A DNA stretch of 64,000 bases from a virus. Taxonomy: Duplodnaviria > Caudoviricetes. Positions 26,764-61,618 of the stretch are shown here, one piece after another; the first letter of the stretch is position 1, and each line of letters opens with the position of its first letter. The stretch spans positions 10,822 to 74,821 of the IMG/VR virus record IMGVR_UViG_3300046786_000226. The stretch is one strand, 5' to 3'. Position numbers and translations under genes: made by a program. Under the pieces are notes generated by a model that saw only the letters and a list, made by a program, of their open reading frames with translations, made no database searches and was not told the origin of the DNA.

Positions 26764-26769
26764 TATTTA
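26764..26769 (-). promoter_or_regulatory. T4-late-like TAAATA element 5 nt before ATG
   Basis: ATAAATA-AAACT-ATG. Confidence 0.5.
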
Positions 26770-27024
26770 TTGACTCTCACCAACAGCACGACCTTTGAAA
26801 GGATGCTGTTTAGGTGCTTTGCCTAACACTGGACTAGTCTTTTTTGGCATTTCAGTTGCAGGAACTTGTTTAGCTTTCTTTTGACCAGCATCTAAGTCCT
26901 CGCCAATCTCCTTACAGCTACCTTTTTCGTTTCGTTTCTTGCCTGGTACTTTTCTAAAACCTGGCCAGCACTTGTCGTAGATTTTGCTATTACCGTGTGC
27001 TTCGAGGAGTTCTTGTATTTTCAT
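26767..27024 (-). CDS. putative virion internal protein (MKIQELLE N-terminus)
   Basis: Capsid-targeting-like N-terminus; basic segments. Confidence 0.65.
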   Translation of the reverse strand: MKIQELLEAHGNSKIYDKCWPGFRKVPGKKRNEKGSCKEIGEDLDAGQKKAKQVPATEMPKKTSPVLGKAPKQHPFKGRAVGESQ

Positions 27025-27025
27025 A

Positions 27026-27448
27026 TTAACAATTCCATTTGCGTAATGCCAATGCCTTGCGTGTTGGCTCGCCGTTGTCCTTTTTCATAGGGCCTTTCAT
27101 GCCACCCATTCTAGCACAGAATGATTTACGACGTTTGGCAGCTTTACTGCCTTTTTTAAGTTTACTAGGTTTAGTTGTCACAGCAGTTTGTAATTTACTA
27201 CCAGGATGTTCCCTGCGATAGCTGGCAACACCTTTGGCATTTAAACCGCCATTTTTATTCTTACCTGACTTCTTTTGCCAAGCGGCAGATTCTTTTAGTA
27301 AGTCATCATCGTCTAGATCTTCAAAGTCTTCCCAAATTACATCAGCATCGACGCCATGCTGTTCGGCAAGTTGTTCTACCCATTCTTCAATGATATCAAA
27401 TTGAGAATCTAAGTCTTGGATTGATTCAGTAAGTTCGTATAATCTCAT
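27026..27448 (-). CDS. putative virion internal protein, acidic N-half and basic C-half
   Basis: MRLYELTE; LLKE-SAAWQKKSGKNKNGGLNAKG...RRKSFCARM. Confidence 0.7.
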   Translation of the reverse strand: MRLYELTESIQDLDSQFDIIEEWVEQLAEQHGVDADVIWEDFEDLDDDDLLKESAAWQKKSGKNKNGGLNAKGVASYRREHPGSKLQTAVTTKPSKLKKGSKAAKRRKSFCARMGGMKGPMKKDNGEPTRKALALRKWNC

Positions 27449-28356
27449 TTGTCTTCTGCGCTCTTAGATAACATTACTTTACCTTGTAATGTAGGATTGT
27501 TTTTAACCATAGCAAGTGCATAGTTATTGGCGCCACGTTTCCAATCAAAGGACTTTGCTACACCTTTTTGTTTGTATATTCTACCATCTATGCGAATATA
27601 CCATGGACCACGATCTTTGTCAATTTGTTGTTGACGTAAGTTACGTTCAAAGTTAGGATCATCTTCATGTCCTAATTCGTGTTGCATTTCTCGACGTTTA
27701 AAGTCACGCTTGCCTTGATCCATTTGATCTTGTTGATAGCTATCGTAGTTAGTAGCACTCATGGTGTCTGGATTACGACTGCCGTATCTACCAGCTTCCG
27801 ACACACCTTCATTTACTTTGACGCCATATTTTTGTAATAGTTGAGCAGTTTTTTGTGCCCACTGCTTGTTATTTTCAGCAGATGCACCAGACATGCCTCT
27901 AACAATGGTTATGTTTAAGTCTGCGTGTTCTTTAGCATATCGAGGATTCTGTTCAATCATTGCAAAATGTTGCTGTTGTACTTTGTTAATAAACGTTGTG
28001 TCATTTGCGCCGGCTTGAGCATTAGTGGCAGCACCAACCCCAGCGGCACCTAATGCCGCTGCCGCTCCAAATTTTAAAAATCCTCTGCGACTCATATCGG
28101 CTTCGTCTACGTCACTACCCATGCCATCTAGTGTTTGTTCAACTTGTCTAACCCAACCACTGACATCACTGCTACCAATTTCTTCTGTGTCGCCAACAAA
28201 GTCAGAAACATCATCAATTGCGGCCATGACTTTTTGTGGGCCATATTTTTGTAACAAGTCTGAACGTTGCATCATAATACGACGAGTGATAGCACCAGCT
28301 ACTGGACTATCGCTTTCAGTTAAACTGTGTTCTTGTGCAAATTCAAATAATCTCAT
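27445..28356 (-). CDS. putative modular virion internal protein with an embedded Tat-like signal
   Basis: MRLFEFAQE; internal VDE-ADMSRRGFLKFGAAAALGAAGVGAATNAQA. Confidence 0.7.
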   Translation of the reverse strand: MRLFEFAQEHSLTESDSPVAGAITRRIMMQRSDLLQKYGPQKVMAAIDDVSDFVGDTEEIGSSDVSGWVRQVEQTLDGMGSDVDEADMSRRGFLKFGAAAALGAAGVGAATNAQAGANDTTFINKVQQQHFAMIEQNPRYAKEHADLNITIVRGMSGASAENNKQWAQKTAQLLQKYGVKVNEGVSEAGRYGSRNPDTMSATNYDSYQQDQMDQGKRDFKRREMQHELGHEDDPNFERNLRQQQIDKDRGPWYIRIDGRIYKQKGVAKSFDWKRGANNYALAMVKNNPTLQGKVMLSKSAEDK

Positions 28357-29603
28357 AGTACAGACCTAATCTCTTCTCTAGATTTATAACCTTCAGCTAC
28401 ATAACGTAGTTGTTCGATAAACTCACGAACTGGACGTGGACGACCTTTTGGCATCATAGCACTTTCTGCACGTCTAGATGGACGACCTCTTGCGCTCTTA
28501 TATGCTTGTAATTGTACCGCTGATACTTTTTTGCCTGCTTTTTGTGACAATGTACCAGCACCAGAATTCCATGAACCTACTACAGCAAATTTATCGCCAC
28601 TTGGAATAACTGCTACTGCGTTTTCTGCGCTACCTACAATTTTGCGCTCTGGGTGTAATCTCTTAGACTTGTGATACCATAGTCTATAATCTGTAATCTT
28701 TTCGCCAGCATCAGTTGTTTGAATACTAGCACTAGGACGGCCTGCGGCTCTAGGAACAGCAGTGGCTTTAGCCGCTACTTTAGCTGCCTTGGCCGCTGCC
28801 TTGGCAGCAGGCTTTTTGTTGCCCCACTCATCGTAATCATCTTCGTCGCCGTCATCGCCTTGATATTCGCTGCCGTATTTGCCTTTGTGTACCATGCCAC
28901 CACTTGTTTTGGTTACTGTAGTACCCATGCCTGTTTTGCGTGACTTATCATTGAAACCATACCAGTCGTCATCATCTTCATCGTCATAACGCTCACTGAT
29001 TTTTTTCTTGCTTTCAGTAATAGATTCTGTAATATAATCATGCACGTCCTGATCAAAACGCATATGAATCCATTCATAAGGATCACCATCACGGCCTTTA
29101 GCTGTGCCATATGGCATTTCGCCATGTAGGAAATAGTAATCGTATAATGCGTGATATAACTCATCACTTAGTTCAGCACCTGCGGCAAAGTCTTTAACTT
29201 CCTTAGGGAAACGTTTTACAATGTGTGCCAATGTATCATTTTGTTCTGGAGCCGCTTCTGCCACTGGTACAGCTTCTTGAACGCCTGGCTGTCCAATACG
29301 TGTAGCCGCTGCTTGCGCCATTTCTGGACCACGATCTTTGTACAACATATTACGCATACTAGACATGATTTGATCAAATGCTCTTGGGTCAGATAACATT
29401 TGCATGAATTGTTCTTGACGACCATTTTGTAATGCTTTTTTATACAAGCCATATACAAATCTAGCTTCTGGGTGTTCTAATGTAACTGGTTCTCCGCCAA
29501 GTGTAATAATAGCTTCGGAGCCCGTAGTTGCCGCATTGGCAATAGATTTTAAATTGTTTGCTCCAGCAATTACTGGGCTTTCAAATAGTTCAAATAAATT
29601 CAT
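28353..29603 (-). CDS. putative modular virion internal protein with an AT-hook-like basic tail
   Basis: MNLFELFE; ITESITE; KPAAKAAAK, RGRP, KGRP. Confidence 0.7.
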   Translation of the reverse strand: MNLFELFESPVIAGANNLKSIANAATTGSEAIITLGGEPVTLEHPEARFVYGLYKKALQNGRQEQFMQMLSDPRAFDQIMSSMRNMLYKDRGPEMAQAAATRIGQPGVQEAVPVAEAAPEQNDTLAHIVKRFPKEVKDFAAGAELSDELYHALYDYYFLHGEMPYGTAKGRDGDPYEWIHMRFDQDVHDYITESITESKKKISERYDDEDDDDWYGFNDKSRKTGMGTTVTKTSGGMVHKGKYGSEYQGDDGDEDDYDEWGNKKPAAKAAAKAAKVAAKATAVPRAAGRPSASIQTTDAGEKITDYRLWYHKSKRLHPERKIVGSAENAVAVIPSGDKFAVVGSWNSGAGTLSQKAGKKVSAVQLQAYKSARGRPSRRAESAMMPKGRPRPVREFIEQLRYVAEGYKSREEIRSVL

Positions 29604-29606
29604 GAT

Positions 29607-30239
29607 TTAACCTTTATAATTGCTGAAGTCGAAAACTTTTCTTAGTCTGTCGTAGGCTTCAGTGCTTATTTCTTCTTTTACTTCTTCTTTATCGTTTGTA
29701 CCGTGGTCTGTTGTTTTTGTAAATTCTTTACCACCTACTGTAAACTTATCACCTTTTTTAACTTGACGCATAGCATCAACAAAAGCATTGCGTTCTGCAA
29801 TAGAAGCTGTACTTTCTTGTGGAACATCTTTCTTAGGATTGCCGGATTTGATAATATTAGCAATATTTTGAATTGTTTGGTCATCGCCATTTTTCAAAAT
29901 ACTTAAAAACGCATCAGCAAGAGTTAGTGTATCTTGTCTTGTTGGATTGCCAACTAGGCTACGTTGAATAGCAGTTCTTAAAACTCTAGGATCAACACCA
30001 ATCTCACCGCCAAGCTTGTTTATATTGTAGTGTGTGCCTTGACCTGGTGTTTCATTGCCGCCTGCCTGTTCGATGCCGCTTGGTGCTACGGCAGCTTCGC
30101 GTATTTTTTTCATTTCTTCTTGTAAACGAGCAATCATTGAATTGCGTTCAGAAAGTTGTTGTTCGTTTAACTCACTGGCATTTACGTTACTTAAACGAGT
30201 TGCTAGTTCATACATTTTGCGGGCTTTTGCTTTATCCAT
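29607..30239 (-). CDS. hypothetical protein in the internal-protein array
   Basis: Start moved to MDKAKARK; internal LNE/LSE/IRE/VKE sites. Confidence 0.65.
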   Translation of the reverse strand: MDKAKARKMYELATRLSNVNASELNEQQLSERNSMIARLQEEMKKIREAAVAPSGIEQAGGNETPGQGTHYNINKLGGEIGVDPRVLRTAIQRSLVGNPTRQDTLTLADAFLSILKNGDDQTIQNIANIIKSGNPKKDVPQESTASIAERNAFVDAMRQVKKGDKFTVGGKEFTKTTDHGTNDKEEVKEEISTEAYDRLRKVFDFSNYKG

Positions 30240-30456
30240 TATTAATCCTTTTTTCGATCCATTTAGCTTCCAATGCACTTGCCAATTCTTCGGCTATATT
30301 TGCATATGGTATTCTGCGTAATATTTCAGCACCTGATTCCTTACGCATACTTCTTGTTTTTCTCTTGCGGTGCATTCGCATAAATGGCATAGAAACAGTA
30401 GAAATACTACCTGAGCCCATACCATCTGTGTCTTCTGTTAGTTCTTGGATCTTCAT
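30232..30456 (-). CDS. putative virion internal protein (MKIQELTE)
   Basis: 74 aa; TAAATA 5 nt upstream. Confidence 0.6.
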   Translation of the reverse strand: MKIQELTEDTDGMGSGSISTVSMPFMRMHRKRKTRSMRKESGAEILRRIPYANIAEELASALEAKWIEKRINNG

Positions 30457-30461
30457 AAGTT

Positions 30462-30467
30462 TATTTA
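30462..30467 (-). promoter_or_regulatory. T4-late-like TAAATA element
   Basis: ATAAATA-AACTT-ATG. Confidence 0.55.
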
Positions 30468-30499
30468 TCGAATTTGTTTCGATTTATTTTAAATTTAAG

Positions 30500-31606
30500 T
30501 TACAGTAATTCCCAGCCGATAAACTGTGGATTCTTTAAGCTTTGTACACGTACTGTAGGATTTGATTCAAACATGCCATTGGCATAGCGTACATAGATAT
30601 CTAGTTCAGCATTATCTTCGCTGTCAGGACGACCAATAACAGCAATAAATCGTTGACTAGTGCCGTCAGGTTGGGCATACTTTAAACCTTTTAACTTAAG
30701 ATCCGCTACTTCATCTTGTGCTGGAACATAGTAAAATCCTTTGGCACTTAGGTAATAGTAAGGCTTGTCGCCAAAGCGTAGAATACTGCTTAACTTGCCA
30801 GCTTTGTTTAATGTTTGTTCGATGGTAACTTCAAATACTTTGGCAATTTTAGAATACATTGGCGTAGCATAAGCTTTTTTAGTGGCCCAGTTAGCTTGGA
30901 ACCAATCGCCGAATACACGCTGCCATTGTGAGTTTTTAGTGATAGCACCCATTATATCTTGGCCAGTCATTGAAATATTCTTGTCGCCTTTTAAATTGAT
31001 AATATACTTTTTAGTTTTACTATCGTAGGTAATGCCATAACGATCGATAGGAATCAAAGGTACATCTGGAGTACTTTGTGCGGCGTTAAGTACATCAGTG
31101 AATACCTTTTCTTTCATGTCTTGATATTCTGTGCCAGCATGCATGGCAAACACGTCAACACCGCGATCTGTTAGAATACCCAGAGCTGCTGGAGTTAAGT
31201 TAGCCAATGTAATACCGCCTTCTGCTTTGACACTAATACCGGCTGTGGCACCGCTTTCAAATTCAATGTCAGTAACACCTGCGGCAATGTTTTGTCCACC
31301 TGCCCATCCTAGTTTAGTGGGAGCAGGCCCTTGTTTGGCTACAACCTTTTCACGTACCATAGAACCTTTTCCAGCCCAAGCATCGAAAGTAGCTTGATCA
31401 AAGTTAGGTACTAACAAGCTTTTAATGTCCTTGTATGTTTGTTCGGGATTTATTAAGATTCCTGCAGGAATAGATTTTTCAGGATTCCTAGGGTCAAATT
31501 TACCGTGACCTACTAGGCCATAAAGCAAGCCCACTTCGCTATTGTAGCGAATACCACCGCTTTTGCCGCCTTCGGTTATGGCTTGTTTAAGTTCTAATAA
31601 TTTCAT
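30500..31606 (-). CDS. putative virion internal protein, possible PD-(D/E)xK nuclease fold
   Basis: MKLLELKQAITE; TDIEF...GISVK resembles a D...(I/S)xK nuclease core. Confidence 0.5.
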   Translation of the reverse strand: MKLLELKQAITEGGKSGGIRYNSEVGLLYGLVGHGKFDPRNPEKSIPAGILINPEQTYKDIKSLLVPNFDQATFDAWAGKGSMVREKVVAKQGPAPTKLGWAGGQNIAAGVTDIEFESGATAGISVKAEGGITLANLTPAALGILTDRGVDVFAMHAGTEYQDMKEKVFTDVLNAAQSTPDVPLIPIDRYGITYDSKTKKYIINLKGDKNISMTGQDIMGAITKNSQWQRVFGDWFQANWATKKAYATPMYSKIAKVFEVTIEQTLNKAGKLSSILRFGDKPYYYLSAKGFYYVPAQDEVADLKLKGLKYAQPDGTSQRFIAVIGRPDSEDNAELDIYVRYANGMFESNPTVRVQSLKNPQFIGWELL

Positions 31607-31613
31607 AATATTA

Positions 31614-31619
31614 TATTTA
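31614..31619 (-). promoter_or_regulatory. T4-late-like TAAATA element
   Basis: ATAAATA-TAATATT-ATG. Confidence 0.55.
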
Positions 31620-31625
31620 TTTCAA

Positions 31626-32246
31626 TTAAATCTTGTCTAACAAATCTCTGTTAGATCTTAAGTATGCTTTGGCATTGTTTAAATCATCGAAGGCTTTGAT
31701 TGTAACACCGTTGCCATCAATGACATGATAACGAACTTCAGTTGAATCGTCGACACGTTTACGAGTCAAACGTTTAATGTATGCTCTACCATCGTCGATG
31801 CTTTCTTTTACGCCTGAACCTGTGTCTACATTATATGATCCACTAGATCTTGAAATCTGATGTTTAGCTTCCCATACTTCGTTCAATAGCAAATCAACTA
31901 ATTTACTACCCAAATCTTCTTCTGCCCACTCTATCATACTTTCTCTAAATTCTGTATCGTAGCTTAAGACAGCATCTGCGAGATCAAACCAATTTGGAGA
32001 ACCGTTACTGTTTAGTTTATTATAGGCTTCTCTAACGTCTGAAAGATCTTGTCCCCAACTTATTTCTTCTGGATTTTCTTCATCGTAGTCATTATCCTGA
32101 GCAGTTCCTAATGATATTATTATTTCAGATAAAAACTTCTTTACTGCTGATACTGTGTTAGTAGGAGCAGGCCTGAAAAATTTCGCATAAGTTTGTTTCA
32201 TCAAATCGCTGTGATAATTTTCGCTTATTATTTCGTTGAATCTCAT
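31626..32246 (-). CDS. putative virion internal protein (MRFNEIISE)
   Basis: Targeting-like N-terminus; internal LNE, VKE. Confidence 0.65.
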   Translation of the reverse strand: MRFNEIISENYHSDLMKQTYAKFFRPAPTNTVSAVKKFLSEIIISLGTAQDNDYDEENPEEISWGQDLSDVREAYNKLNSNGSPNWFDLADAVLSYDTEFRESMIEWAEEDLGSKLVDLLLNEVWEAKHQISRSSGSYNVDTGSGVKESIDDGRAYIKRLTRKRVDDSTEVRYHVIDGNGVTIKAFDDLNNAKAYLRSNRDLLDKI

Positions 32247-32247
32247 T

Positions 32248-32697
32248 TTATTTTCCTATCCTGCTTAGTTCATATATTACTTTGTTGCCTGTATCAGCAC
32301 GAAAGGCTCTAAAGCCCCAAGCTCTAGCATAACGCTGAACTAAGCTGTCATATAGTCTGGCTCTACTCTGTGCGTTCTGTCCTTGTTCAACTTCTTTGCT
32401 AGCTGAAAAGATTACTTTATTAGGCTTGTATTTCTTAATAAACTTTTGAATAGCACTTAATACTGTAGCAAATACTCGTTGAGCATCACCTTCACCTGTT
32501 ACTTCTTGGCTGTTGTTTCTAAAGAATTCAACGTTCCATGCTTCTTCTTTATCTTGGTTATAACCTTTATTGAACATAATGCTTAGATAGTTACCATCAT
32601 CTAATTTAGCGTATGCGTCAATATCACCATAGTCTCCTTGTTCCCAACGAAGTTGGTAGGGTTGATCAAATGCTTCTTTTAATTCCAGTAATCGCAT
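32248..32697 (-). CDS. putative virion internal protein (MRLLELKE)
   Basis: Targeting-like N-terminus; GEGDAQRVFATV...SRARLY domain of unknown function. Confidence 0.65.
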   Translation of the reverse strand: MRLLELKEAFDQPYQLRWEQGDYGDIDAYAKLDDGNYLSIMFNKGYNQDKEEAWNVEFFRNNSQEVTGEGDAQRVFATVLSAIQKFIKKYKPNKVIFSASKEVEQGQNAQSRARLYDSLVQRYARAWGFRAFRADTGNKVIYELSRIGK

Positions 32698-32698
32698 A

Positions 32699-35053
32699 TT
32701 ATTCTTGACTCATTACAGGAACCATTACAGGCACCATTCTAAGGCCTTCTGTATGCTCGTGTCCATTATTTCTTATCCACGGAACGGCTGCTCTATAAGC
32801 ATCTTCTGCATTATTACCAACGCCACTGAGGCGATATAATTCTCTGCCAGTTCCGTCTACTAATTTCCATATACCTGTAAATCTGCCACCTTCGTGCCGA
32901 CCAAATGTTGGCAGTGGCTCGTTTTCTCCCACTGGCTCGACTTGATAGTTACCGTCAAAGTTATTTTCTCTTGCCCATAAGGCAGCAAACTCATTGGCAA
33001 ATGCTCGTGTATTGTTAGCGGCAAAGAATACATATAATGGTCTACCAAGCCCGTCTATTATTTTCCATCGGTGAGTTGGACTTGTTTGAGCACGGCCTTG
33101 TTGAGCGTCATTGCGTTGGCGCTGTAAATCTAATGTACTTCCTGGAATAGGTGCTGACAATACCGAGCGAACATCATAATCAGTTGGGTCTCCGGGTAAA
33201 CCTAAGTCGGCTAAATGTCCGGCAATTTTGTTGGCAGCATCATCTGGACTATTTGCTCTAAATACAATAGGGCGACCTGAATTTCCTATCACTGTTCTGC
33301 CGTCGGCTTTGCGATACAATTCATATTCTGACGATTGTCCTACACTGCCGGCTGGTTGTGGTTCACCTACTGTTGCTTTAACAGGACTTTCATCATATGG
33401 CTTAATTGGCTTTGCTGTCATGTTTGTAGCGTTTGCCCAATCTGGGTATTCTGATTTGCCTTTTTGTATAGCTTCTTCTTTGCTAGTAGCAACGACTTGA
33501 ACACTAGCACCGAATCCTGGACGACCCACACTCCACCAATATTTTTGTCCACTTGTTGGATCTTTTTGTACTTTACGTTCTAACTGCGCTTGACGAACAA
33601 AACTCTTTAACGCACTCTGTGGTAATTCGCCGGCAGCATATCTAGCAAAATAAGCTAATGTGTCAGTGCCTGTGCTTTCATTGCCTGTTAATAATTTATA
33701 AAGTTTCTTTGCGTATTCTTGTTTGTATTTTGTTTCGTCTACTGCGGCATCCATAGCAACAACAAAACGATATAGTGTATTTTCAATCTTGTCAAAGTTA
33801 TCGTTTAACCAATCGCCACCTGGACTACGGAATTCGATGTAGCCTGTTTTAGTATTAATACTTGTATACTTTGATGTACTACCACTGTGAATTATTTTAG
33901 ATGCACTGGTGTTTAAGTGTTCGCGCATTTTGTCTAACAATGCTTTTGTATCATCTGGTCGTTGTACGATATGATTTTTAACCATCTTAAGGGCACTCTT
34001 ACAGTAAGTATTGCCTTGACGACCAAACTCCTGTAATACGTATTCGTCGCCCATTAGAATAGCAAGCTTGACAAAGTCTAAATTAGCAATGTTGCCATCC
34101 CAATTAGGAACACTGACGTTAATGTGTAAACCTGTACTGTCATTTGTATAGCAACCAGTTTTGTCTGCCCACGCTTTAACTTTCTTTAAGTCTTCGATTA
34201 ATTCATTAACAGGCATAGGAGGGCTAACAAATTCCAATCCACCGTCTGCATCGTCATCTGGCTCTAAACTACCATCGGGTTCTACAACATAGTGTCCTGG
34301 CTCTCGACGTGCGCCATGATAGTTATTGCTGGAGTTGATTGGCTTACCAATAGCACGACTGAAACTATCTGCGGCATCATCTATACTAACTTCTCCAGTT
34401 TCTCTTTCTGGAGTAAAGTAATGTGGCCAAACAATGTGGTAATTACTTTCCACATCCTGCATAGTATTAATATCAGCACTTTCAAGCCATTCGCTTTCTA
34501 AATCAGCACTACCATAAAAATTATCACGGAAATCTTCTTCAGCTTCTTCATACCAAGGATTGATTTGATCTTCTGAGACTTTGGCGGCAGCGTTTCTATA
34601 ATCTTCTTTTGTAGGATCCGGATAGTTGCCGTTTTCATCTTCTTCTACACCTAATATACCAAATACATCACTAGGAGCGGCATTATAGCGTAGCCAATCA
34701 TATATGACTTCATCTTTATCTGTTTCCCAACGATCCGCTAAATGTTGGTCCAACCATTCATGATAATCTTCAGTCATTTTATCGCGAAGTTGTTCACAGT
34801 CTCTACGACTGTTAAAATCACCATCATAGAAGAAATCAAAGGCATCTTGAATACTGTTTACGCTTTCATCCGCATCGTAGTCTGTTTCTCGATAGTCATC
34901 ATCATAATCATCATCGCCTTGGCTTGCACCTGGAACAATCATTTCAAATTCCATACCAGCTTGTGCGTTAATGTTAGCAACAAGACTGCGTAGGCCAGCA
35001 GGGCTCATATTAATTTCATTGATGATTTGTTCGAATATTTCTTTGTATTTCAT
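32699..35053 (-). CDS. putative amidoligase (COOH-NH2 ligase type 2) with a targeting-like N-terminus
   Basis: GMEFE, EPDGSL, GLEFVSP, TGLHINV, KYTSIN, YIEFRSPG motifs; MKYKEIFE start. Confidence 0.8.
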   Translation of the reverse strand: MKYKEIFEQIINEINMSPAGLRSLVANINAQAGMEFEMIVPGASQGDDDYDDDYRETDYDADESVNSIQDAFDFFYDGDFNSRRDCEQLRDKMTEDYHEWLDQHLADRWETDKDEVIYDWLRYNAAPSDVFGILGVEEDENGNYPDPTKEDYRNAAAKVSEDQINPWYEEAEEDFRDNFYGSADLESEWLESADINTMQDVESNYHIVWPHYFTPERETGEVSIDDAADSFSRAIGKPINSSNNYHGARREPGHYVVEPDGSLEPDDDADGGLEFVSPPMPVNELIEDLKKVKAWADKTGCYTNDSTGLHINVSVPNWDGNIANLDFVKLAILMGDEYVLQEFGRQGNTYCKSALKMVKNHIVQRPDDTKALLDKMREHLNTSASKIIHSGSTSKYTSINTKTGYIEFRSPGGDWLNDNFDKIENTLYRFVVAMDAAVDETKYKQEYAKKLYKLLTGNESTGTDTLAYFARYAAGELPQSALKSFVRQAQLERKVQKDPTSGQKYWWSVGRPGFGASVQVVATSKEEAIQKGKSEYPDWANATNMTAKPIKPYDESPVKATVGEPQPAGSVGQSSEYELYRKADGRTVIGNSGRPIVFRANSPDDAANKIAGHLADLGLPGDPTDYDVRSVLSAPIPGSTLDLQRQRNDAQQGRAQTSPTHRWKIIDGLGRPLYVFFAANNTRAFANEFAALWARENNFDGNYQVEPVGENEPLPTFGRHEGGRFTGIWKLVDGTGRELYRLSGVGNNAEDAYRAAVPWIRNNGHEHTEGLRMVPVMVPVMSQE

Positions 35054-35055
35054 AG

Positions 35056-35313
35056 TTAGCCTACAACTTTCGCAGTAATTTTATATTTATTGTAATAATG
35101 ATTGATATCAAAAATAGCAGATTTGTAATCATCGACAAGCCAATGATATACATAAAACTTTAACAAGCTTTTAGAATCCTCGCTGAACTTTGTAGCCGTT
35201 ACTCTTGCTAATGCCAATGACGGATAGCGACTTTTTAATTTAGAAATAATATACTCGTCGTATGTGTCTACTTCGACATCAAGTGTAGTATATGTTTGAT
35301 CAACACGCTTCAT
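35056..35313 (-). CDS. hypothetical protein
   Basis: 85 aa, coupled. Confidence 0.6.
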   Translation of the reverse strand: MKRVDQTYTTLDVEVDTYDEYIISKLKSRYPSLALARVTATKFSEDSKSLLKFYVYHWLVDDYKSAIFDINHYYNKYKITAKVVG

Positions 35314-36551
35314 TTTTTATGTTTAAAATAATTAATACGACGCTCTTGCTTCTCTACCCAATCCTTGCTGGGTTTGCCATCGCCTTTAAAATATACCAAA
35401 GGACGACCTTCTCGTTTACTTACTATGGCCCAACGCTTGTGTATCTTACGAAGGTATTCCAATAAGTTGGCAGCTTCTTCTTCTAGATTGTATTCTTCGC
35501 TGTCTGTAATTTGTTTTAAGTTGTGCTTTTTCAACCATTGCTGATATTCATATGGTGTTCTGAATTCTTTTCTTTTATTAGCAACTGCTTTAGGATCATA
35601 ATAAAGACGTTGTTTAGTAATCTCTAATGGGTCATGTGCTTTTTCATCACCAGCAAAGAAGTCACGCATAGTAGATAAACTTGTAGCTTCTTCTAAGTCA
35701 GCAACCGCAAAGCCAATATAACTATCGCCATTCTCGTCGCCTGATTGTACAACAAAGGCACCGCCTTCTTCTGATTCTAATTCGCCAATTTCCCAACCCA
35801 TACGTGCTAGTACTTGCTCTACTTGTTGCTGTGTGCCCAAGTCTCCATTGTACCACATACGAGCATATTTGTGTAATGTTTCTTCTTCTCCGCCATCGCC
35901 TGCGTCTGGAGCAAATTCATTTAAGCTTTCGGATACTGCTAGTCGTTTGTCAAATATTTGTTTAATCTTTTTTAACTGTCTACTCTGCGGATATAAGTCT
36001 TGTAGAATACTTAATTTAGTTTGATCATCTGCACCGCTGTATAGTTCTCTAACTTGACTGCCGCTGTAAACAGGATTACCGGCAATACTAAAGTCGTGCT
36101 TTTTAGTCACAAAAATATAGGCATGCTTGCTAAAAGGTTCTGCACCTTGTATACCTTGCCATGGTTGATAGTAACTCACATCCGTTGTTTTCATTGGATC
36201 ACGTTCACTGCGAACAATTACCAATACGTCGCGTTCTGGATTGAATTTTTGTAATACTTCTAAAGGATTTAACGGAGTGCTGGTTACTTTGCGACCATTG
36301 TCATTGACATAGCTCATTGTACCTACTTGTATAAATGGATCGACTACGCCTGCTTGCTGTGCTAAAAATTGTTTTTCTTTAAATTCAAATGGACGCTCTG
36401 TGGTTACGTTACTGGCAGCAACAAAGAAATGTGCGCCAGGAAAAGCTGTCTTAGCTTCTCTATAACTGCTGGCATGTCCTTCATGAAAGGGTTGAAAGCC
36501 GCCTCCATAGACAACTATAATGTTTGGTTGTTTAACTTCTAATAATCTCAT
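35310..36551 (-). CDS. HxGH-class nucleotidyltransferase with a targeting-like N-terminus and C-terminal modules
   Basis: YGGGFQPFHEGH, YSGSQVRE; MRLLEVKQ; LNE/LEE separators. Confidence 0.75.
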   Translation of the reverse strand: MRLLEVKQPNIIVVYGGGFQPFHEGHASSYREAKTAFPGAHFFVAASNVTTERPFEFKEKQFLAQQAGVVDPFIQVGTMSYVNDNGRKVTSTPLNPLEVLQKFNPERDVLVIVRSERDPMKTTDVSYYQPWQGIQGAEPFSKHAYIFVTKKHDFSIAGNPVYSGSQVRELYSGADDQTKLSILQDLYPQSRQLKKIKQIFDKRLAVSESLNEFAPDAGDGGEEETLHKYARMWYNGDLGTQQQVEQVLARMGWEIGELESEEGGAFVVQSGDENGDSYIGFAVADLEEATSLSTMRDFFAGDEKAHDPLEITKQRLYYDPKAVANKRKEFRTPYEYQQWLKKHNLKQITDSEEYNLEEEAANLLEYLRKIHKRWAIVSKREGRPLVYFKGDGKPSKDWVEKQERRINYFKHKK

Positions 36552-37828
36552 TAGCGTCTTGCTTTCAAAAAGTTCTCACGACTGAATTCTAATCTGTCTA
36601 CGATTTTAACTGCTTCAGTGCCGCCTGTGCCTAAATGGTCAACAATAACAACACCCTCTTCTGGCTTAACATCAAAGCTGCCATCTGGTCTAGCAATAAA
36701 TGTATTGATTTGACGTATTCTAGCATAGTGTAATTGTAACACATCTTTAACACGTTGTATACCCAGGAATAAGAAGTAAACATTGGTAATGCTTTCTTCG
36801 TGCTGTCTAATAAATTTCAATGCTTCTTCCTGTGCTTGTCGTTTACGGTCTTGACCAGTTTGTGTTTTTAGTTTAGCAATATCAGCAGTTAAACGTTCTT
36901 CTAACCGTCCAACAAACTTGCTAACATACACTGCAGGTTGATCCATTAAACCGCTACGCACCATTTTGTTTACGTCAATTTTAATTAAGTCTCTAATGCC
37001 ATGGCCAGCAATACTGGCTTCTAACCATTGGAATGTTTCTTGGCCAATACCCTGCAAGAAACTTGTTAGTTCAGTGATAGCATGTTCTAATTTATATGTT
37101 TCTTCTCTAGTCAATGTTACGCTACCGCTGACATCTTTTAATGCGGCATCTCTATAATAGACAAACGGACTAGATCCTAGTTCGCTGGTATCAGCACCAA
37201 AGCGGGCCTGCATGTCACTGATGCTGGTGCCTTCATAGGTTGTATGGAACACAACACCTACTTTAACTTTGCTCATTTTCTGTGCCAATGGTGTATCAGC
37301 AGGAACAGCATAAGTTAATAAGTTAGGCTTAAATGTCCAATAGTTTTCGCCGTCGATTTGTTGAAAGCCACTGTCGCCATCTCCTGCTGTCCATAACAAA
37401 TCACCTTGAAGAATTTTATCTCCAAAGTTTAAATCTTTTAAGTAATTAAATGCTACCTTTAGTTTAGTTCTAAGTCCACTGTAGTCTACTTTCGAACCGT
37501 CTTTGGCAGTTTTATCTGGCTTAATTCTATCAATGTCAGCGGCAGTATAGATTCTATTATCTTTAGTGCCAGCAAAAATACCTTTGTCGCCCATGATAAA
37601 TTGTCCTGTTTCTGGATCAGTGCCTACAAATATAGCTGGGCTACCATCCCATTTCTTAGTGGCAAAATAACGGCCGTCTGTGTTACCATGTAATAGTCCA
37701 GCGGCTCCTTGTAAGTAGCTTATAGCTTCAACAGCACCTTGATAACCCCTGTTCCAGATTTCATCATCCAAGTGTTCTAAGTGTGTGTTCTTGCCTTCTA
37801 CGGTTTCGACGAGTTGTTGTATCTTCAT
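36551..37828 (-). CDS. ligase-like nucleotidyltransferase (KxDG) with a targeting-like N-terminus
   Basis: MKIQQLVETVE; KNTHLEHL, KKWDGSPAIF, ILQGDL, EEGVV, AVKIVDRLEFS resemble ligase motifs I, III, IV, V. Confidence 0.6.
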   Translation of the reverse strand: MKIQQLVETVEGKNTHLEHLDDEIWNRGYQGAVEAISYLQGAAGLLHGNTDGRYFATKKWDGSPAIFVGTDPETGQFIMGDKGIFAGTKDNRIYTAADIDRIKPDKTAKDGSKVDYSGLRTKLKVAFNYLKDLNFGDKILQGDLLWTAGDGDSGFQQIDGENYWTFKPNLLTYAVPADTPLAQKMSKVKVGVVFHTTYEGTSISDMQARFGADTSELGSSPFVYYRDAALKDVSGSVTLTREETYKLEHAITELTSFLQGIGQETFQWLEASIAGHGIRDLIKIDVNKMVRSGLMDQPAVYVSKFVGRLEERLTADIAKLKTQTGQDRKRQAQEEALKFIRQHEESITNVYFLFLGIQRVKDVLQLHYARIRQINTFIARPDGSFDVKPEEGVVIVDHLGTGGTEAVKIVDRLEFSRENFLKARR

Positions 37829-46371: not shown

Positions 46372-46764
46372 TTAACTGTGTAATGTTACCAAAATATCTT
46401 TGATTGATTCTTTGGGCAATTCATTGACATCGCCTTTAATTGTTGTACAAATTTTGTTAAACCAAATTCGTGCTTCAGTAGCAGGATCTCTAGTATCATC
46501 GTAGTAAACATCAACAAAGAAATCGCTGTCTTTGATAGCATTAAATCTATTTGAGTATTTTTCAAATGCTGATATTTTTACGCTGTCGCTGACAGGGACT
46601 TGATTATAAACCTTTAACAATGCAATAATGGCAGTGGCTTTATCTACAACTTTGCCATTCCAAGCAAATACATCATCAAACACATGAGCAGGTTTGCCGC
46701 TGAGTGTGCTGATTAGTGCCGCTTGGCCCAGCTCAGTATCCAAGAGTTGTTGCGTCAAATTCAT
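46372..46764 (-). CDS. hypothetical protein
   Basis: Start moved to MNLTQQ (GAGG RBS). Confidence 0.6.
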   Translation of the reverse strand: MNLTQQLLDTELGQAALISTLSGKPAHVFDDVFAWNGKVVDKATAIIALLKVYNQVPVSDSVKISAFEKYSNRFNAIKDSDFFVDVYYDDTRDPATEARIWFNKICTTIKGDVNELPKESIKDILVTLHS

Positions 46765-47350
46765 AGTTGATTTCCTCATTGTTGATAATGTCTAAAAATT
46801 CACTGTTGGGCATAACATAACCATAGCCCACATATTTGGCATAACGTGCCAGGAATCCACGACGGTCCAATTTGTTTACTTTAAGTACATTGTTTCTAGC
46901 ATCTTCGATACCAGGACCTGACAAATTTAAATCTTTGTCCACAGCAATTTGACAGCAAGTAAAGTCAAAGTTAGCAAACACATCGTCTAATGTTTCATAG
47001 TATGCTCTGCGAATTAATTGTACTTTGTAATCACCTACTGTATACGTTCGAGCATTGTCACTGCTAAATGTTTCATAGATATGATTACCAAATGTGTTGT
47101 CCAATCTAATCAAGCATTGTTCGTAGCTTTTGGCATTATTGAACCATATATCAATGTCAGCAAATGATTGACAAGTAGGGTCAATGGCAAGCTGTCTGCC
47201 CATGCCTCCGGCGATCCAGGGACCTTGTTCCTGTGTGCTGTCTAAGTAGATTGTATCTACAATGTTTTTTAATGTGGGTGCTGTGTAGTTACGTGCTTTA
47301 TAGTCAGAGCTAGTAATACTGCCAAATAATTCAGTTAGGTTTGTGTACAT
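46733..47350 (-). CDS. Pol-beta-type nucleotidyltransferase (CCA/poly(A) polymerase head-like)
   Basis: WIAGG, ADIDIWF, VQLI, FDFTCCQIA. Confidence 0.65.
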   Translation of the reverse strand: MYTNLTELFGSITSSDYKARNYTAPTLKNIVDTIYLDSTQEQGPWIAGGMGRQLAIDPTCQSFADIDIWFNNAKSYEQCLIRLDNTFGNHIYETFSSDNARTYTVGDYKVQLIRRAYYETLDDVFANFDFTCCQIAVDKDLNLSGPGIEDARNNVLKVNKLDRRGFLARYAKYVGYGYVMPNSEFLDIINNEEINYEFDATTLGY

Positions 47351-58746: not shown

Positions 58747-59433
58747 TTATAAACTGCTAATAAGCACCGCTTCTTCAATCTTTTGGATATCGTTGTTAAA
58801 TCTAAGTTGGAACATCATTAAATCACTGGGATCATCTAGATAAACAGCCGCAGTCCAGCCTATTCCTCTGCTGAGATTGGTTGTGTAAAAAAAGCGATCC
58901 AATGTAGAGTTTAACCCATAGTTTGCGACATTTTCTAGATACAGTTTAACATCATTGTATCTAGATTCTCTTAGGGCATAGTCGCATTTCAAATAAACTT
59001 TGAATTTAAACTGTTTATCAAACAATGTATTTCTGACAACCACAGCACGATGGCGGTCTAATACATCACTGTGATTGGAATTTATTGGCATTTGTATTTG
59101 ATAAAAATGCTGTGGAAGTTGACTCATTATAGCATTTAGATCAGTGACATCATTAGTAAAAATACTTAGATGTCGGCCTTCTGCTCGCAGTCTATAATCA
59201 TCATTGACAATGATTTTTTTAACATCTTTAACTAATTGGCCCAACAATTCAAATCTGTTTGTATAAGAATTATACCTGCTCCAAGTAGGACGAAAGGCTG
59301 AAGCAATTTTAGTTGCTTTAACCTTAGACTCATCAATTTTTAAAACTAATTTACAAAAATACTTGTCGTAGAATTTTTTGCTAATATGTTTAGGTTCATG
59401 GCGTCCGGGTAATTGTAGTTTATCGAAGTTCAT
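58747..59433 (-). CDS. hypothetical phage protein
   Basis: Likely start MNFDKLQ overlapping the clpA end. Confidence 0.65.
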   Translation of the reverse strand: MNFDKLQLPGRHEPKHISKKFYDKYFCKLVLKIDESKVKATKIASAFRPTWSRYNSYTNRFELLGQLVKDVKKIIVNDDYRLRAEGRHLSIFTNDVTDLNAIMSQLPQHFYQIQMPINSNHSDVLDRHRAVVVRNTLFDKQFKFKVYLKCDYALRESRYNDVKLYLENVANYGLNSTLDRFFYTTNLSRGIGWTAAVYLDDPSDLMMFQLRFNNDIQKIEEAVLISSL

Positions 59434-61618
59434 AGTCTTGCCCATTGTGATGTACTACCAATGTACAATCTCTTAGATTTTCAAATACAATACGCTTACT
59501 TAATGGCTTTTTAATTTTGTCAGAGATCAAACGTTTCATAGGTCTAGCACCCATCTTTTCGTCGAATCCTTCTTCAATTAATTTAGACAAAGCAGATTCT
59601 TCAACTCCAATTTTAATTCCTTTTTGTGCCAACAAATCATTAAGTTCGTCAATAAACTTTGTAGCAATAGGACGAACTTGTTCTTTGTCCAATCTATTAA
59701 ATTCAATAATAGAATCTAAACGATTGCGGAACTCTGGAGTAAAATGTTTGTTAACTGCGTCATAACTAGCAGACTTATTAGGACTATTATCAAATCCAAT
59801 GCGACTGCGTTCACCATCTCTAGCACCTAAGTTACTGGTCATAATAAGAATAATATTACGACAGCTTACAGTTTTACCATTGCTACTTGTTAGCATACCA
59901 TTATCCATAACACCTAGCAAGATATTAAGAACGTCGGGGTGAGCTTTTTCAACTTCATCTAACAACAGAATAGCACTAGGGTTTTGTTCCAAATCATTGA
60001 TAAGTTTACCACCACCAGCGCCACCTTCTCCATAGCCAACATAGCCAGGAGGAGCGCCAATCAAGCTGGCAACTTTATGACTTTCCATATACTCGCCCAT
60101 GTCATAGCGTAGCAATGTCATACCCAAGTTATTGGCAAGTTGTTGTGCTAGTTCTGTTTTACCTACACCAGTTGGACCAACAAACAAGTAACTGCCCATT
60201 GGTTTAGTTAGATCTTTAAGTCCAGCTTTGGCAATATAAACGCTGTCCAGCAGTTTATCAACAGCTTGATCTTGTCCAAAAACTTTCTTCTTAATCTGTG
60301 TTTCATAGTCTAGATTAACTGCTTCTTGTTCAGTGTTCAATTGTTCAAGCGGAACTTTAGCTTGTTTGCTGATTTCATGCTTGACATCTTCTAATGTTAA
60401 GAAGTTTTCAATCTTTTCAACTTTCATCAATGCCATGGCACTGTCTAGAATATCAATAGCTTTGTCTGGCAAAAACTTATCATGCATGTGTTTGACTGTT
60501 AGATCTACAACTGCGTCAATTGCTGTCATTTCAACTTCGATACCATGATACTTTTCGTATTCAGGCATAATACAATGTAGCATGTTCTTACAATCTTCGG
60601 CACTCATTTCTTTAACATCTAGCTTGGTAAAGCGACGAGCAAGAGCACGTTCTGGTTCGATAGTTTCGCGATATTCTTCGTAGGTTGTTGAGCCAATAAT
60701 TTGTACACGCCCGCGAGTTAATGCCGGCTTAATTAAATTAGCCATGTCCATGGCACTATTACTACCAGCACCTGCACCAACTACAGTATGAATTTCGTCA
60801 ATGAACAAAATAGCATTATCACGCTTTTCTAGAATGTCAATAACTTGTTTAATACGCTCTTCAAAATCACCACGGTATTTTGTACCAGCCATTAAACTTC
60901 CCATATCCAAACTATAAATGATACAGTCTTTGATAGTATGCGGAACTTTGTCTTCGATGATTCTACGAGCAAGGCCTTCTACGATATGTGTTTTACCTAC
61001 ACCTGGCTCACCAACTAGAATAGCATTACGCTTTTTACGACGAGCGAGAATTTGTGTAAGTGAATCTACTTCTTTGTTTCGGCCGATTAGAGGATCAATT
61101 CTACTTGCTTTGGCTTCTTCATTTAGGTTGACACAGAATTCATTGAGTAGTCGTTCTGCCACAGCTTCTGCTTTATTGCTTGCAGGTTTAACATTTTTAC
61201 CTAGAATTTCTAGGAACGTTTCTTTCGTAACTCCATGCTGTGCCAAATAATAGCAAGCATGGCTATTACGTTCGCTGAGGATACTTAACATCATATCCTG
61301 ACTGGCAATGCCACCTCTGCCATTGAACAGAGCTTGTGTAAATGCACGATTAAATGCTCGCTCTAGTGTCTGTGTTTTACGTGGCTTAGTCAAGCCCTGT
61401 ACAATTAGATAATCTTGGCTAGCTAAGAAGTTATTAATATCTTCTACAATTGGTTCTACATGAACACCCATTGTTGAAAGAAAATCTATAATTTCTTTAT
61501 TTTCTAACATAACCAATGTTAGATGTTCTAGTGTAACGTATTCGTGTTCTTTGTTCAAAGCTAGTCTAAAAGCTTTTTCAAGAATTTCGTTAATCGGTTG
61601 ATTGTCTTCCATTGGCAT
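59420..61618 (-). CDS. clpA: ATP-dependent Clp protease ATP-binding subunit ClpA
   Basis: N-domain HEYVTLEHL; NBD1 GEPGVGKT, LFIDEIH, LARRF; NBD2 GPTGVGKTE, GAPPGYVG, LLDEVEKAH, PEFRNRLD, GARP; no ClpB middle coil. Confidence 0.93.
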   Translation of the reverse strand: MPMEDNQPINEILEKAFRLALNKEHEYVTLEHLTLVMLENKEIIDFLSTMGVHVEPIVEDINNFLASQDYLIVQGLTKPRKTQTLERAFNRAFTQALFNGRGGIASQDMMLSILSERNSHACYYLAQHGVTKETFLEILGKNVKPASNKAEAVAERLLNEFCVNLNEEAKASRIDPLIGRNKEVDSLTQILARRKKRNAILVGEPGVGKTHIVEGLARRIIEDKVPHTIKDCIIYSLDMGSLMAGTKYRGDFEERIKQVIDILEKRDNAILFIDEIHTVVGAGAGSNSAMDMANLIKPALTRGRVQIIGSTTYEEYRETIEPERALARRFTKLDVKEMSAEDCKNMLHCIMPEYEKYHGIEVEMTAIDAVVDLTVKHMHDKFLPDKAIDILDSAMALMKVEKIENFLTLEDVKHEISKQAKVPLEQLNTEQEAVNLDYETQIKKKVFGQDQAVDKLLDSVYIAKAGLKDLTKPMGSYLFVGPTGVGKTELAQQLANNLGMTLLRYDMGEYMESHKVASLIGAPPGYVGYGEGGAGGGKLINDLEQNPSAILLLDEVEKAHPDVLNILLGVMDNGMLTSSNGKTVSCRNIILIMTSNLGARDGERSRIGFDNSPNKSASYDAVNKHFTPEFRNRLDSIIEFNRLDKEQVRPIATKFIDELNDLLAQKGIKIGVEESALSKLIEEGFDEKMGARPMKRLISDKIKKPLSKRIVFENLRDCTLVVHHNGQDYELR

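What the first reader, a model, noticed from the sequence alone, without database searches (positions are those of the whole stretch)
28012..28095. Cryptic internal twin-arginine (Tat) signal unmasked by a predicted capsid-protease cut
Seen: in the middle of the 303-aa ORF is DVDE-ADMSRRGFLKFGAAAALGAAGVGAATNAQA-G. It has an exact S-R-R-x-F-L-K Tat consensus, an Ala/Gly h-region and an AQA signal-peptidase site. It lies 2 residues after a VDE site, and no clear Shine-Dalgarno precedes the internal ATG at 28095. Known: Tat signals work only near an N-terminus. Inference: head maturation exposes the signal, so after ejection into the cytoplasm the module would be exported or membrane-anchored by the host Tat system. 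That would be maturation-gated re-targeting of an injected protein to the envelope (superinfection exclusion, channel sealing or Tat jamming). I know of no described example.
Basis: partly seen in the sequence, partly recalled or inferred. Interest (0 to 1): 0.85.

Follow-up and report, generated by a model that had tools for sequence, protein, structure and literature searches.

The report
Buried Tat export signal in phage polyprotein
An uncultured giant T4-related phage carries a complete, strongly conserved bacterial Tat export signal in the middle of a three-module protein, directly after a head-protease-type cutting site, which suggests (untested) that cutting exposes an export address on a protein delivered with the phage DNA.

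Summary
ORF 27445-28356 (-) has V83-D84-E85 | A-D-M-S-R90-R91-G-F-L-K, an Ala/Gly h-region and A113-Q-A115 | G116. Chance expectation in the window's proteome is about 1e-6. It passes NCBIfam's Tat model (17.1 bits, cut-off 16.7) but not Pfam's.

The contig is about a fifth of a roughly 350-kb jumbo phage related to Atu_ph07 and Rak2-type phages. The protein has a T4-CTS-like leader and three shuffling cassettes, each preceded by [VILM]-x-E.

In homologues I found 43 occurrences (29 distinct) of the same signal, at residues 7 to 714, in front of several different cargo domains. All have [VILM]-x-E 2-4 residues before RR. No short stand-alone form was found.

Three orthologues show 0 nonsynonymous and 8 synonymous columns in the signal. 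The codon at M88 is CTA or ATA in some homologues, so an internal start is not the general explanation.

A 95%-complete relative with two such genes encodes a gp21-type prohead protease and no Tat genes. Packaging, cleavage, injection and export are all untested.

Verdict: a real, selected Tat signal. The unmasking-by-head-protease reading is the best explanation but is only partly supported. Earlier notes of this scan describe the same layout in at least 8 other genomes. I found no paper on it.

The parts
27445..28356 (-). 303-aa modular precursor: leader, cassette A, Tat signal plus cassette B, cassette C
   Evidence: ORF list. Homologues show three independently shuffling modules.
28315..28356 (-). 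N-terminal leader MRLFEFAQE...LTE14, resembling a T4 capsid-targeting sequence
   Evidence: The motif M-[KR]-[LIF]-x-[EQ]-[LFI]-x(1-2)-E heads the consecutive genes 26767-32697 and gene 36551-37828. T4 IPII/IPIII start MKTYQEFIAE and T4 gp24 starts MAKINELLRE.
28111..28314 (-). Cassette A (residues 15-82), unknown function
   Evidence: It occurs at many positions in other long proteins. In orthologues it is joined directly to C (P0004, P0016) or to other cassettes.
28102..28110 (-). V83-D84-E85, a predicted prohead-protease-type site (hydrophobic-x-Glu)
   Evidence: [VILM]-x-E lies 2-4 residues before RR in 43 of 43 occurrences. G[VIM]xE is seen 468 times against 89.5 +/- 9.3 in shuffles, while G[VIM]xD is not enriched. 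The V codon is GTA, which is not a start codon.
28012..28101 (-). Tat-type signal peptide A86..A115: n-region ADMS, R90-R91, h-region, A-Q-A c-region
   Evidence: TIGR01409 scores 17.1 bits against a 16.7 cut-off. 0 nonsynonymous and 8 synonymous columns. Mean Kyte-Doolittle value of the h-core over 29 distinct signals is 1.43, and 28 of 29 have A-x-A. The segment is disordered in the AF2 model.
27808..28011 (-). Cassette B mature domain (G116-E183), the predicted Tat cargo: a small three-helix domain
   Evidence: AF2 pLDDT 80-88 with helices at residues 120-136, 138-147 and 158-176. No fold match in the PDB and none in the Atlas.
27796..27807 (-). Linker G-V-S-E187 (with V-N-E183 just before it), a second predicted cut site
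   Evidence: This is the consensus inter-cassette linker (Q)G[VIM]xE|[GAS]. It is disordered in the model. Hydrophobic-x-E lies within 2 residues of the start of module C in 64% of 80 occurrences in homologues.
27448..27795 (-). Cassette C (A188-K303): long helix plus a small alpha/beta domain, unknown function
   Evidence: 162 of the fetched homologues carry it, often directly after an N-terminal leader. AF2 pLDDT is about 90 for the last 55 residues. No PDB fold match.
26767..37828 (-). Array of genes sharing the leader motif, the context of the finding
   Evidence: motif scan; sites in each ORF. The array is syntenic in relatives.
30462..30468 (-). ATAAATA element upstream of the co-oriented gene run that contains the ORF; possibly a T4-late-type promoter
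   Evidence: The heptamer is depleted in the window (17 observed, 30.2 +/- 5.4 expected), and most copies lie just upstream of gene starts: 26764, 30462, 31614, 35084, 37837. Promoter function is an inference.

Best explanation
The ORF is a head-targeted precursor of a T4-related jumbo phage. It consists of a short CTS-like leader and three exchangeable cassettes, each separated by a hydrophobic-x-Glu site of the kind cut by the T4 gp21-type prohead protease.

Cassette B begins with a complete Tat signal peptide. A cut after E85 would make this signal N-terminal (ADMSRRGFLKF...AQA). A second cut at VNE183 or VSE187 would release a precursor of about 100 residues.

After ejection with the DNA into a new host's cytoplasm, the host Tat system would export the small folded three-helix domain. 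Signal peptidase I would then remove the signal after A115.

Shown: the signal, its selection, the conserved upstream site, the cassette architecture, and the protease gene in a relative.

Inferred: packaging, cleavage, injection, Tat export, and whatever the domain does in the periplasm.
For: 1. Signal quality. It has SRRGFLK, an Ala/Gly h-region and AQA. TIGR01409 is passed by the window fragment and by 7 of 9 homologues. 28 of 29 distinct signals keep A-x-A, and the modest h-core hydrophobicity (mean 1.43) is, from my own knowledge, typical of Tat signals.

2. Selection. The signal shows 0 nonsynonymous against 8 synonymous columns among three orthologues. Cassettes A and C show 20/23 and 24/25.

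3. Conservation in context. There are 43 occurrences at residues 7-714 of different proteins, in front of several unrelated downstream domains. One protein (P0095) has two. All have [VILM]-x-E 2-4 residues before RR. RR precedes 27 of 31 distinct copies of the B domain.

4. No stand-alone form of 165 aa or less was found. The one apparently N-terminal form (P0162) is a contig cut by an Illumina adapter.

5. Cassette logic. Orthologues are A-C, A-[Tat+B]-C or A-[other cassette]-C, always joined through (Q)G-V-x-E|[AG]. QG[VIM]xE occurs 217 times against 4.3 in shuffles, and the Asp version is not enriched.

6. Head link.
- The leader resembles those of T4 IPII/IPIII and gp24, and T4 gp23 has L-T-E65|A (the 65-residue propeptide and the CTS role are from PMC5694885).
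- G001 is 95% complete, has two adjacent genes with internal Tat signals, and encodes Peptidase_S77 (81 bits) and a Gp23-type capsid protein.
- 37 of 262 family members end in [KRQ]LAG[LAIV], as does the scaffold-position ORF of G001.

7. Two signals in one chain (P0095) cannot both work unless the chain is cut.

8. Relatives also carry Sec-like and lipobox signals directly after the same kind of site.

9. No TatA or TatC gene was found in the phage records, so the host system would have to be used.
Against: - There is no virion proteome, no mapped N-terminus and no export assay for any member. No cultured phage in the collection carries these cassettes.
- The window's own contig (21% of a genome) holds no head genes or protease. 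The protease is known only from a relative.
- V and M at P3 go beyond the published L/I-x-E rule for T4 gp21.
- Internal Tat signals can work without being N-terminal (Streptomyces Rieske, PMC13186574), so cutting is not strictly needed.
- One lineage (P0259-P0262) replaced RR by K-E-K while keeping the hydrophobic stretch, and P0206 has the B domain with no signal.
- Pfam's Tat model is below its threshold on the window protein.
- The cargo's function is unknown.
Confidence: 0.5

Rival explanations
1. The signal is real but acts in the producing cell. The precursor, or a fragment made by a cytoplasmic protease, is recognised by Tat during late infection. Either the signal works from its internal position (the N-terminal part stays in the cytoplasm) or it works after a cut made outside the capsid. 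The B domain would then act in the envelope of the infected cell, for example in superinfection exclusion or lysis control.
For: Internal Tat signals are functional in the Streptomyces Rieske protein (PMC13186574, PMC3471239). All the signal conservation data fit this reading equally well. There is no direct evidence of packaging.
Against: It does not explain the invariant hydrophobic-x-E 2-4 residues before RR, the CTS-like leader, or the two signals in one chain in P0095. In the known internal case, Sec-inserted transmembrane helices precede the signal; here the upstream cassette is soluble.
Confidence: 0.2
2. The RR plus Gly/Ala-rich stretch is a membrane anchor or membrane-insertion element rather than a cleaved export signal. 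It would tether the ejected or assembling protein to the inner membrane, for example at the DNA entry site or during prohead assembly.
For: The Gly/Ala-rich stretch resembles glycine-zipper membrane segments. Other family members carry uncharged Gly/Ala stretches after E sites with no RR and no A-x-A (P0121, P0122, P0190, P0218). The K-E-K variant keeps only the hydrophobic part.
Against: The full tripartite signal is kept: RR in 27 of 31 and A-x-A in 28 of 29, with a small polar start of the mature part. h-core hydrophobicity of 1.43 is low for a stable anchor.
Confidence: 0.15
3. An internal translation start at ATG 28095 makes an ordinary stand-alone Tat pre-protein (M88-K303) from a nested gene.
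For: There is an in-frame ATG two codons before RR. SD use is weak throughout this genome, so the weak SD (-2.1 kcal/mol) does not exclude a start. T4 gene 21 itself has an annotated internal start.
Against: The same position is CTA (L027, L028), ATA (L009) or TTG (L001, L002) in homologues. No stand-alone form was found. The upstream V-x-E is conserved although it would lie outside such a product.
Confidence: 0.07
4. The signal is a functionless relic of a cassette captured from a gene for an exported protein and fused into the polyprotein.
For: Cassettes are clearly exchanged by recombination at the linkers.
Against: 0 nonsynonymous against 8 synonymous columns. The signal is conserved over many divergent contexts and different cargos.
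Confidence: 0.03

Closest known systems
T4 internal proteins IPI, IPII, IPIII and Alt, with the capsid-targeting sequence processed by gp21
   Same: A short N-terminal leader ending in hydrophobic-x-E (T4 MKTYQEFIAE; here MRLFEFAQE). Several neighbouring genes with unrelated bodies share the leader. A gp21-family protease is present in a close relative. Delivery with the DNA is the presumed purpose (PMC3012670, PMC5694885).
   Different: The T4 proteins are single-domain, and none is reported to carry an export signal. Here the proteins are multi-cassette precursors with internal cut sites, and one cassette starts with a Tat signal. Packaging has not been shown here.
Multiply processed head and ejection proteins of giant phages (phiKZ, SPN3US)
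   Same: Head proteins are cut at several x-E sites by a prohead protease related to gp21, and many are ejection proteins (PMC5694885, PMC10052503).
   Different: Those phages use an S/A/G-x-E motif and long propeptides. No export signals have been described. There is no sequence relation to the cassettes here.
Bacterial Tat signal peptides (TIGR01409, PF10518)
   Same: An S/T-R-R-x-F-L-K motif, a weakly hydrophobic h-region and an A-x-A site; it passes the TIGR01409 cut-off.
   Different: It is encoded 85 residues inside the protein, and up to 700 residues inside in relatives, rather than at the N-terminus. It is phage-encoded and always follows a hydrophobic-x-E site.
Internal Tat signal of the polytopic Rieske protein of Streptomyces (Sec-Tat cooperation)
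   Same: A twin-arginine signal that is not N-terminal directs a C-terminal folded domain through Tat (PMC3471239, PMC13186574).
   Different: In that case the signal is the third transmembrane helix of a membrane protein whose first helices are inserted by Sec. Here the upstream part is a soluble cassette and no proteolytic unmasking is involved in the Rieske case.

Membership tests
Tat signal peptide (TIGR01409 / PF10518) | Twin-arginine consensus S/T-R-R-x-F-L-K | tested here: met
   S89-R-R-G-F-L-K95. TIGR01409 scores 17.1 bits against a 16.7 cut-off. PF10518 scores 14.9 bits, below its 22.7 cut-off.
Tat signal peptide (TIGR01409 / PF10518) | Weakly hydrophobic h-region followed by an A-x-A signal-peptidase site | tested here: met
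   F96..T111 is uncharged, followed by A113-Q-A115|G. The h-core Kyte-Doolittle mean is 1.34, and 28 of 29 distinct homologous signals keep A-x-A.
Tat signal peptide (TIGR01409 / PF10518) | Located at the N-terminus of the translated protein | tested here: not met
   It starts at residue 86 of 303. In homologues it lies at residues 7-714, and the single N-terminal case is an assembly artefact. It would be N-terminal only after a cut at E85.
Tat signal peptide (TIGR01409 / PF10518) | Export depends on TatABC and on the RR pair | not testable with these tools
   This needs tat+ and tatC- hosts and an RR-to-KK control.
T4-type head cargo (CTS plus gp21 processing) | Short N-terminal leader ending in hydrophobic-x-E, shared by neighbouring unrelated genes | tested here: met
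   Eight ORFs matched the scan pattern (26767-32697 and 36551-37828), and 30500-31606 starts with a similar leader, MKLLELKQAITE. 157 of 262 fetched homologues have such a start. The T4 leaders were read from NC_000866.
T4-type head cargo (CTS plus gp21 processing) | A gp21-family (Peptidase_S77) prohead protease in the same genome | tested here: inconclusive
   It is absent from the 74.8-kb contig, which is only 21% of a genome. It is present at 81 bits in G001, a 95%-complete relative with two genes of this type.
T4-type head cargo (CTS plus gp21 processing) | Cleavage after Glu in L/I-x-E | tested here: inconclusive
   Candidate sites are LTE14, VDE85, VNE183 and VSE187. The linker is strongly enriched and Glu-specific. 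P3 is often V or M, and no cleavage has been observed.
T4-type head cargo (CTS plus gp21 processing) | Protein present in mature virions and ejected with the DNA | not testable with these tools
   No cultured relative carries these cassettes.

The most novel reading that the evidence does not exclude
Jumbo T4-related phages use a two-step address code. A leader sends multi-cassette precursors into the prohead. There the head protease cuts at hydrophobic-x-Glu linkers and so unmasks bacterial sorting signals of all three classes: Tat (this ORF), Sec-like (P0125, P0179) and lipoprotein (P0135, P0150). The newly infected host would then distribute the injected phage proteins to its cytoplasm, membrane and periplasm before any phage gene is expressed.
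Probability: 0.35. Interest if true: 0.85.

Novelty: new variant of a known kind. Interest (0 to 1): 0.7.

Why it matters
Proteins injected with phage DNA are the first phage factors to act in a cell, and known examples act in the cytoplasm or form the entry channel. A packaged protein that carries a latent host export signal would extend this early arsenal to the periplasm and envelope. It would do so through Tat, the one general pathway that takes folded proteins after translation.

The layout also provides a natural switch. If the precursor's buried signal is not recognised before cutting, export could not happen in the producing cell; this depends on internal signals being inactive here, which is untested. 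It could be tested directly with simple export assays in laboratory strains.

The cassette-and-linker architecture, with QGVAE-type joints, also suggests how these phages swap cargo modules rapidly.

Tried and rejected
- tblastn of the whole protein, of cassette B and of cassette C against 50,697 phage records found nothing, so no cultured model is at hand.
- A word-indexed search for stand-alone short forms of cassette B found none.
- Foldseek against the PDB gave no match for either the cassette B or the cassette C model. The protein Atlas gave only sub-0.5 TM rows.
- The exact T4 late promoter TATAAATA is not enriched (3 observed, 8.2 expected). Only the shorter ATAAATA shows a positional pattern.
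- A lead from earlier scan notes, a Tat signal in front of a GH19 lysozyme, was not reproduced in my relatives. GH19 in G001 and G002 is a stand-alone 203-205-aa gene without a signal.
- Pfam on ten Tat-bearing homologues named no cargo domain following a signal; GP88 in P0249 lies about 260 residues further on.
- A second RRGFL in the window (ORF 46733-47350) is not followed by a hydrophobic stretch and is not a signal.
- The antisense ORF 28025-28369 (+) is only the mirror of the Gly/Ala codons. The synonymous-site pattern supports the minus-strand frame.
- The genome search could not reach the 360-kb JGI contig of L001.

Full report
**Observation.** ORF 27445..28356 on the minus strand encodes 303 residues.
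- Residues 83-116 read V-D-E, then A-D-M-S-R-R-G-F-L-K-F, then an uncharged Ala/Gly stretch, then A-Q-A, then G.
- The finding's coordinates 28012-28095 are exactly M88..A115.
- Given the composition of the window's genes, the motif plus 18 uncharged residues is expected about 1.3e-6 times. It occurs once.
- NCBIfam TIGR01409 scores the fragment starting at A86 at 17.1 bits against a cut-off of 16.7.
- Pfam PF10518 gives 14.9 bits, below its cut-off of 22.7.

**What the genome is.**
- The window lies in a 74.8-kb IMG/VR virus record that CheckV estimates to be 21% complete, which implies a jumbo phage of roughly 350 kb.
- Its family-B DNA polymerase is closest (43-49% identity) to Sinorhizobium phage Phosso, Agrobacterium phage Atu_ph07 and the 121Q/Munch group of 350-kb myoviruses.
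- The window also has a ClpA/B-like ATPase, UvdE, an amidoligase and DUF6267.
- No tRNA genes were found.

**The leader array.**
- Eight ORFs match the scan pattern M-[KR]-[LIF]-x-[EQ]-[LFI]-x(1-2)-E: seven between 26767 and 32697, and gene 36551-37828. ORF 30500-31606 starts with a similar leader, MKLLELKQAITE.
- Read from the T4 record, IPII and IPIII start MKTYQEFIAE and gp24 starts MAKINELLRE. gp23 has F-L-T-E65 followed by A.
- The role of the 10-20-residue T4 leaders as capsid-targeting sequences removed by gp21, and the 65-residue gp23 propeptide, are stated in PMC5694885 and PMC3012670.
- The heptamer ATAAATA is depleted in the window (17 against 30.2 expected). Most copies lie just upstream of gene starts, including 30462, 31614, 35084 and 37837. 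This resembles T4 late promoters, but that is an inference.

**Architecture of the protein.** The searches show three modules that occur independently in hundreds of metagenomic proteins: A (residues 15-82), B (83-190) and C (188-303).
- The closest orthologues are A-C (P0004, P0016), A-[Tat+B]-C (this ORF, P0002, P0003), or A-[another cassette]-C (P0005, P0008, P0010, P0012).
- The joints always read (Q)G-V-x-E followed by A or G.
- Across 262 fetched proteins, G[VIM]xE occurs 468 times against 89.5 +/- 9.3 in shuffles, and QG[VIM]xE occurs 217 times against 4.3.
- The Asp version is not enriched, and the next residue is mostly G, A or S.
- In this ORF the candidate sites are LTE14, VDE85, VNE183 and VSE187.

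**The Tat cassette in relatives.**
- I found 43 occurrences (29 distinct sequences) of RRGFL followed by a Gly/Ala h-region, at residues 7 to 714 of their proteins.
- Every one has [VILM]-x-E 2-4 residues before RR.
- 28 of the 29 distinct signals keep A-x-A 18-36 residues after the first Arg. The mean h-core hydrophobicity is 1.43.
- Seven of nine tested homologues pass TIGR01409. One of seven signal-bearing homologues passes PF10518 and six fall just below its cut-off.
- The signal precedes the B domain in 27 of 31 distinct B copies. Three proteins of one lineage have M-A-E|G-W-K-E-K plus the hydrophobic stretch, and one has no signal.
- The same signal also precedes several unrelated downstream sequences (P0095's second copy, P0205, P0210, P0215, and L009's 402-aa ORF).
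- P0095 has two signals in one chain.
- No protein of 165 residues or fewer with the B cassette was found.
- The one seemingly N-terminal case, P0162, is an artefact. Its contig begins with an Illumina adapter, and the called start is the GTG of S-V-E-E-D-L.

**Selection.** I compared the window gene codon by codon with two orthologues (L022, L023; 80-86% protein identity).
- The signal (residues 86-115) has 0 nonsynonymous and 8 synonymous-only columns.
- Cassette A has 20 and 23, and cassette C has 24 and 25.
- Within V-D-E only the middle residue changes.

**Internal start.**
- SD pairing before ATG 28095 is -2.1 kcal/mol. That equals the background for internal ATGs, but a third of the true starts are equally weak.
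- The homologue codons at this position are more telling: ATG, TTG, CTA and ATA.
- The V codon is GTA here, which is not a start.
- An internal start therefore cannot explain the conserved layout, although it cannot be excluded for this one gene.

**Link to the head.**
- G001 is a 331.6-kb record estimated 95% complete. It has two adjacent genes with internal Tat signals within a run of leader-bearing genes.
- It encodes a Peptidase_S77 (gp21-type) protease at 81 bits and a Gp23-type capsid protein. Between them lies a coiled-coil ORF at the position of gp22.
- That ORF ends in K-R-L-A-G-L. 37 of the 262 family proteins end in [KRQ]LAG[LAIV], against 0.16 in shuffles, and the motif occurs only 3 times elsewhere in these proteins.
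- The window's own contig holds no head genes.
- No TatA or TatC was found in G000-G003.

**Cargo.**
- AlphaFold2 with 27 sequences models residues 86-116 and 184-190 as disordered. Residues 120-176 form a three-helix domain with pLDDT 80-88.
- Cassette C has a long helix and a confident small alpha/beta domain.
- Neither model has a PDB fold match, and the Atlas gave nothing usable. The function in the periplasm is unknown.

**Interpretation.** The simplest account of all these facts is as follows.
1. The signal is functional.
2. It is made N-terminal by a cut after the conserved Glu.
3. The cutting enzyme is the gp21-type head protease, because the leader, the linker motif and the relative's protease all point there.

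Tat suits a pre-made, folded, injected protein because it acts after translation. That the signal itself is real and under selection I put at about 0.9.

The main rival (0.2) is export in the producing cell, with or without a cut. Internal Tat signals do work in the Streptomyces Rieske protein (PMC13186574, PMC3471239). The other rivals are a membrane-anchor role (0.15), an internal start (0.07) and a relic (0.03).

**Novelty.** Five full-text searches found no paper describing Tat signals in phage head cargo. Earlier notes of this same scan report the same layout in at least 8 other genomes. These are AI notes, not independent evidence, but they mean this window is a further member rather than the first sighting. 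I rate it as a new variant of known kinds: T4-type head cargo combined with a Tat signal.

Noticed in passing
homologues P0125, P0131, P0179, P0200, P0228 (Sec-like); P0135 and P0150 (lipobox): Other members of the polyprotein family carry internal signals of other classes directly after [VILM]-x-E. One type reads E|G-W-K-E-K, then a hydrophobic stretch, then A-N-A|R, which looks like a Sec/SPase I signal. The other reads E|G-I-[RK]-[DK], then a hydrophobic stretch, then L-S-G-C, which is a lipoprotein box.
   Followed up: partly
L024:225-1319 (G001) and the C-termini of 37 of 262 homologues: The ORF at the scaffold (gp22) position of a relative ends in KRLAGL. The motif [KRQ]LAG[LAIV] is strongly enriched at the C-termini of the polyproteins (37 against 0.16 expected) and is almost absent elsewhere in them. 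It may be a motif that binds the prohead core.
   Followed up: partly
window 26764, 30462, 31614, 35084, 37837, 45923, 58729 (minus strand): ATAAATA is depleted overall (17 against 30 expected), and most copies lie a few bases upstream of gene starts. It is a candidate late-promoter element like the T4 TATAAATA.
   Followed up: partly
L028:1-27: The metagenomic contig that encodes P0162 begins with an Illumina adapter sequence, so its 'N-terminal Tat signal' protein is a truncated call.
   Followed up: yes
window 29607-30278 (-): The listed GTG start is probably wrong. The internal M-D-K-A-K-A-R-K-M-Y-E-L-A matches the N-termini of homologues P0069 and P0138 (MNKQRARQLYELA, MDKEQARKLYE). This is a second leader type within the array.
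   Followed up: no
window 59420-61618 (-); L001:1-203; L027:6038-8841: A ClpA/B-like double AAA+ ATPase with a Clp_N domain lies near the polyprotein array in the window and in two relatives. In L027 a DnaJ-like gene is next to it. Any role in handling the cargo proteins is unknown.
   Followed up: no
window 27026-27448 (-); L025:1712-4231: The DUF6321 module of the next gene is also the C-terminal end of an 839-aa protein lying between gp16 and gp17 of a T4-like cyanophage. Its last 30 residues recur in Pelagibacter podoviruses.
   Followed up: partly
window 28353-28356 and 27445-27448: The ORF overlaps both neighbouring genes by 4 bases (ATGA-type overlaps). This suggests translational coupling within the array, and SD sequences are weak throughout the window.
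   Followed up: no
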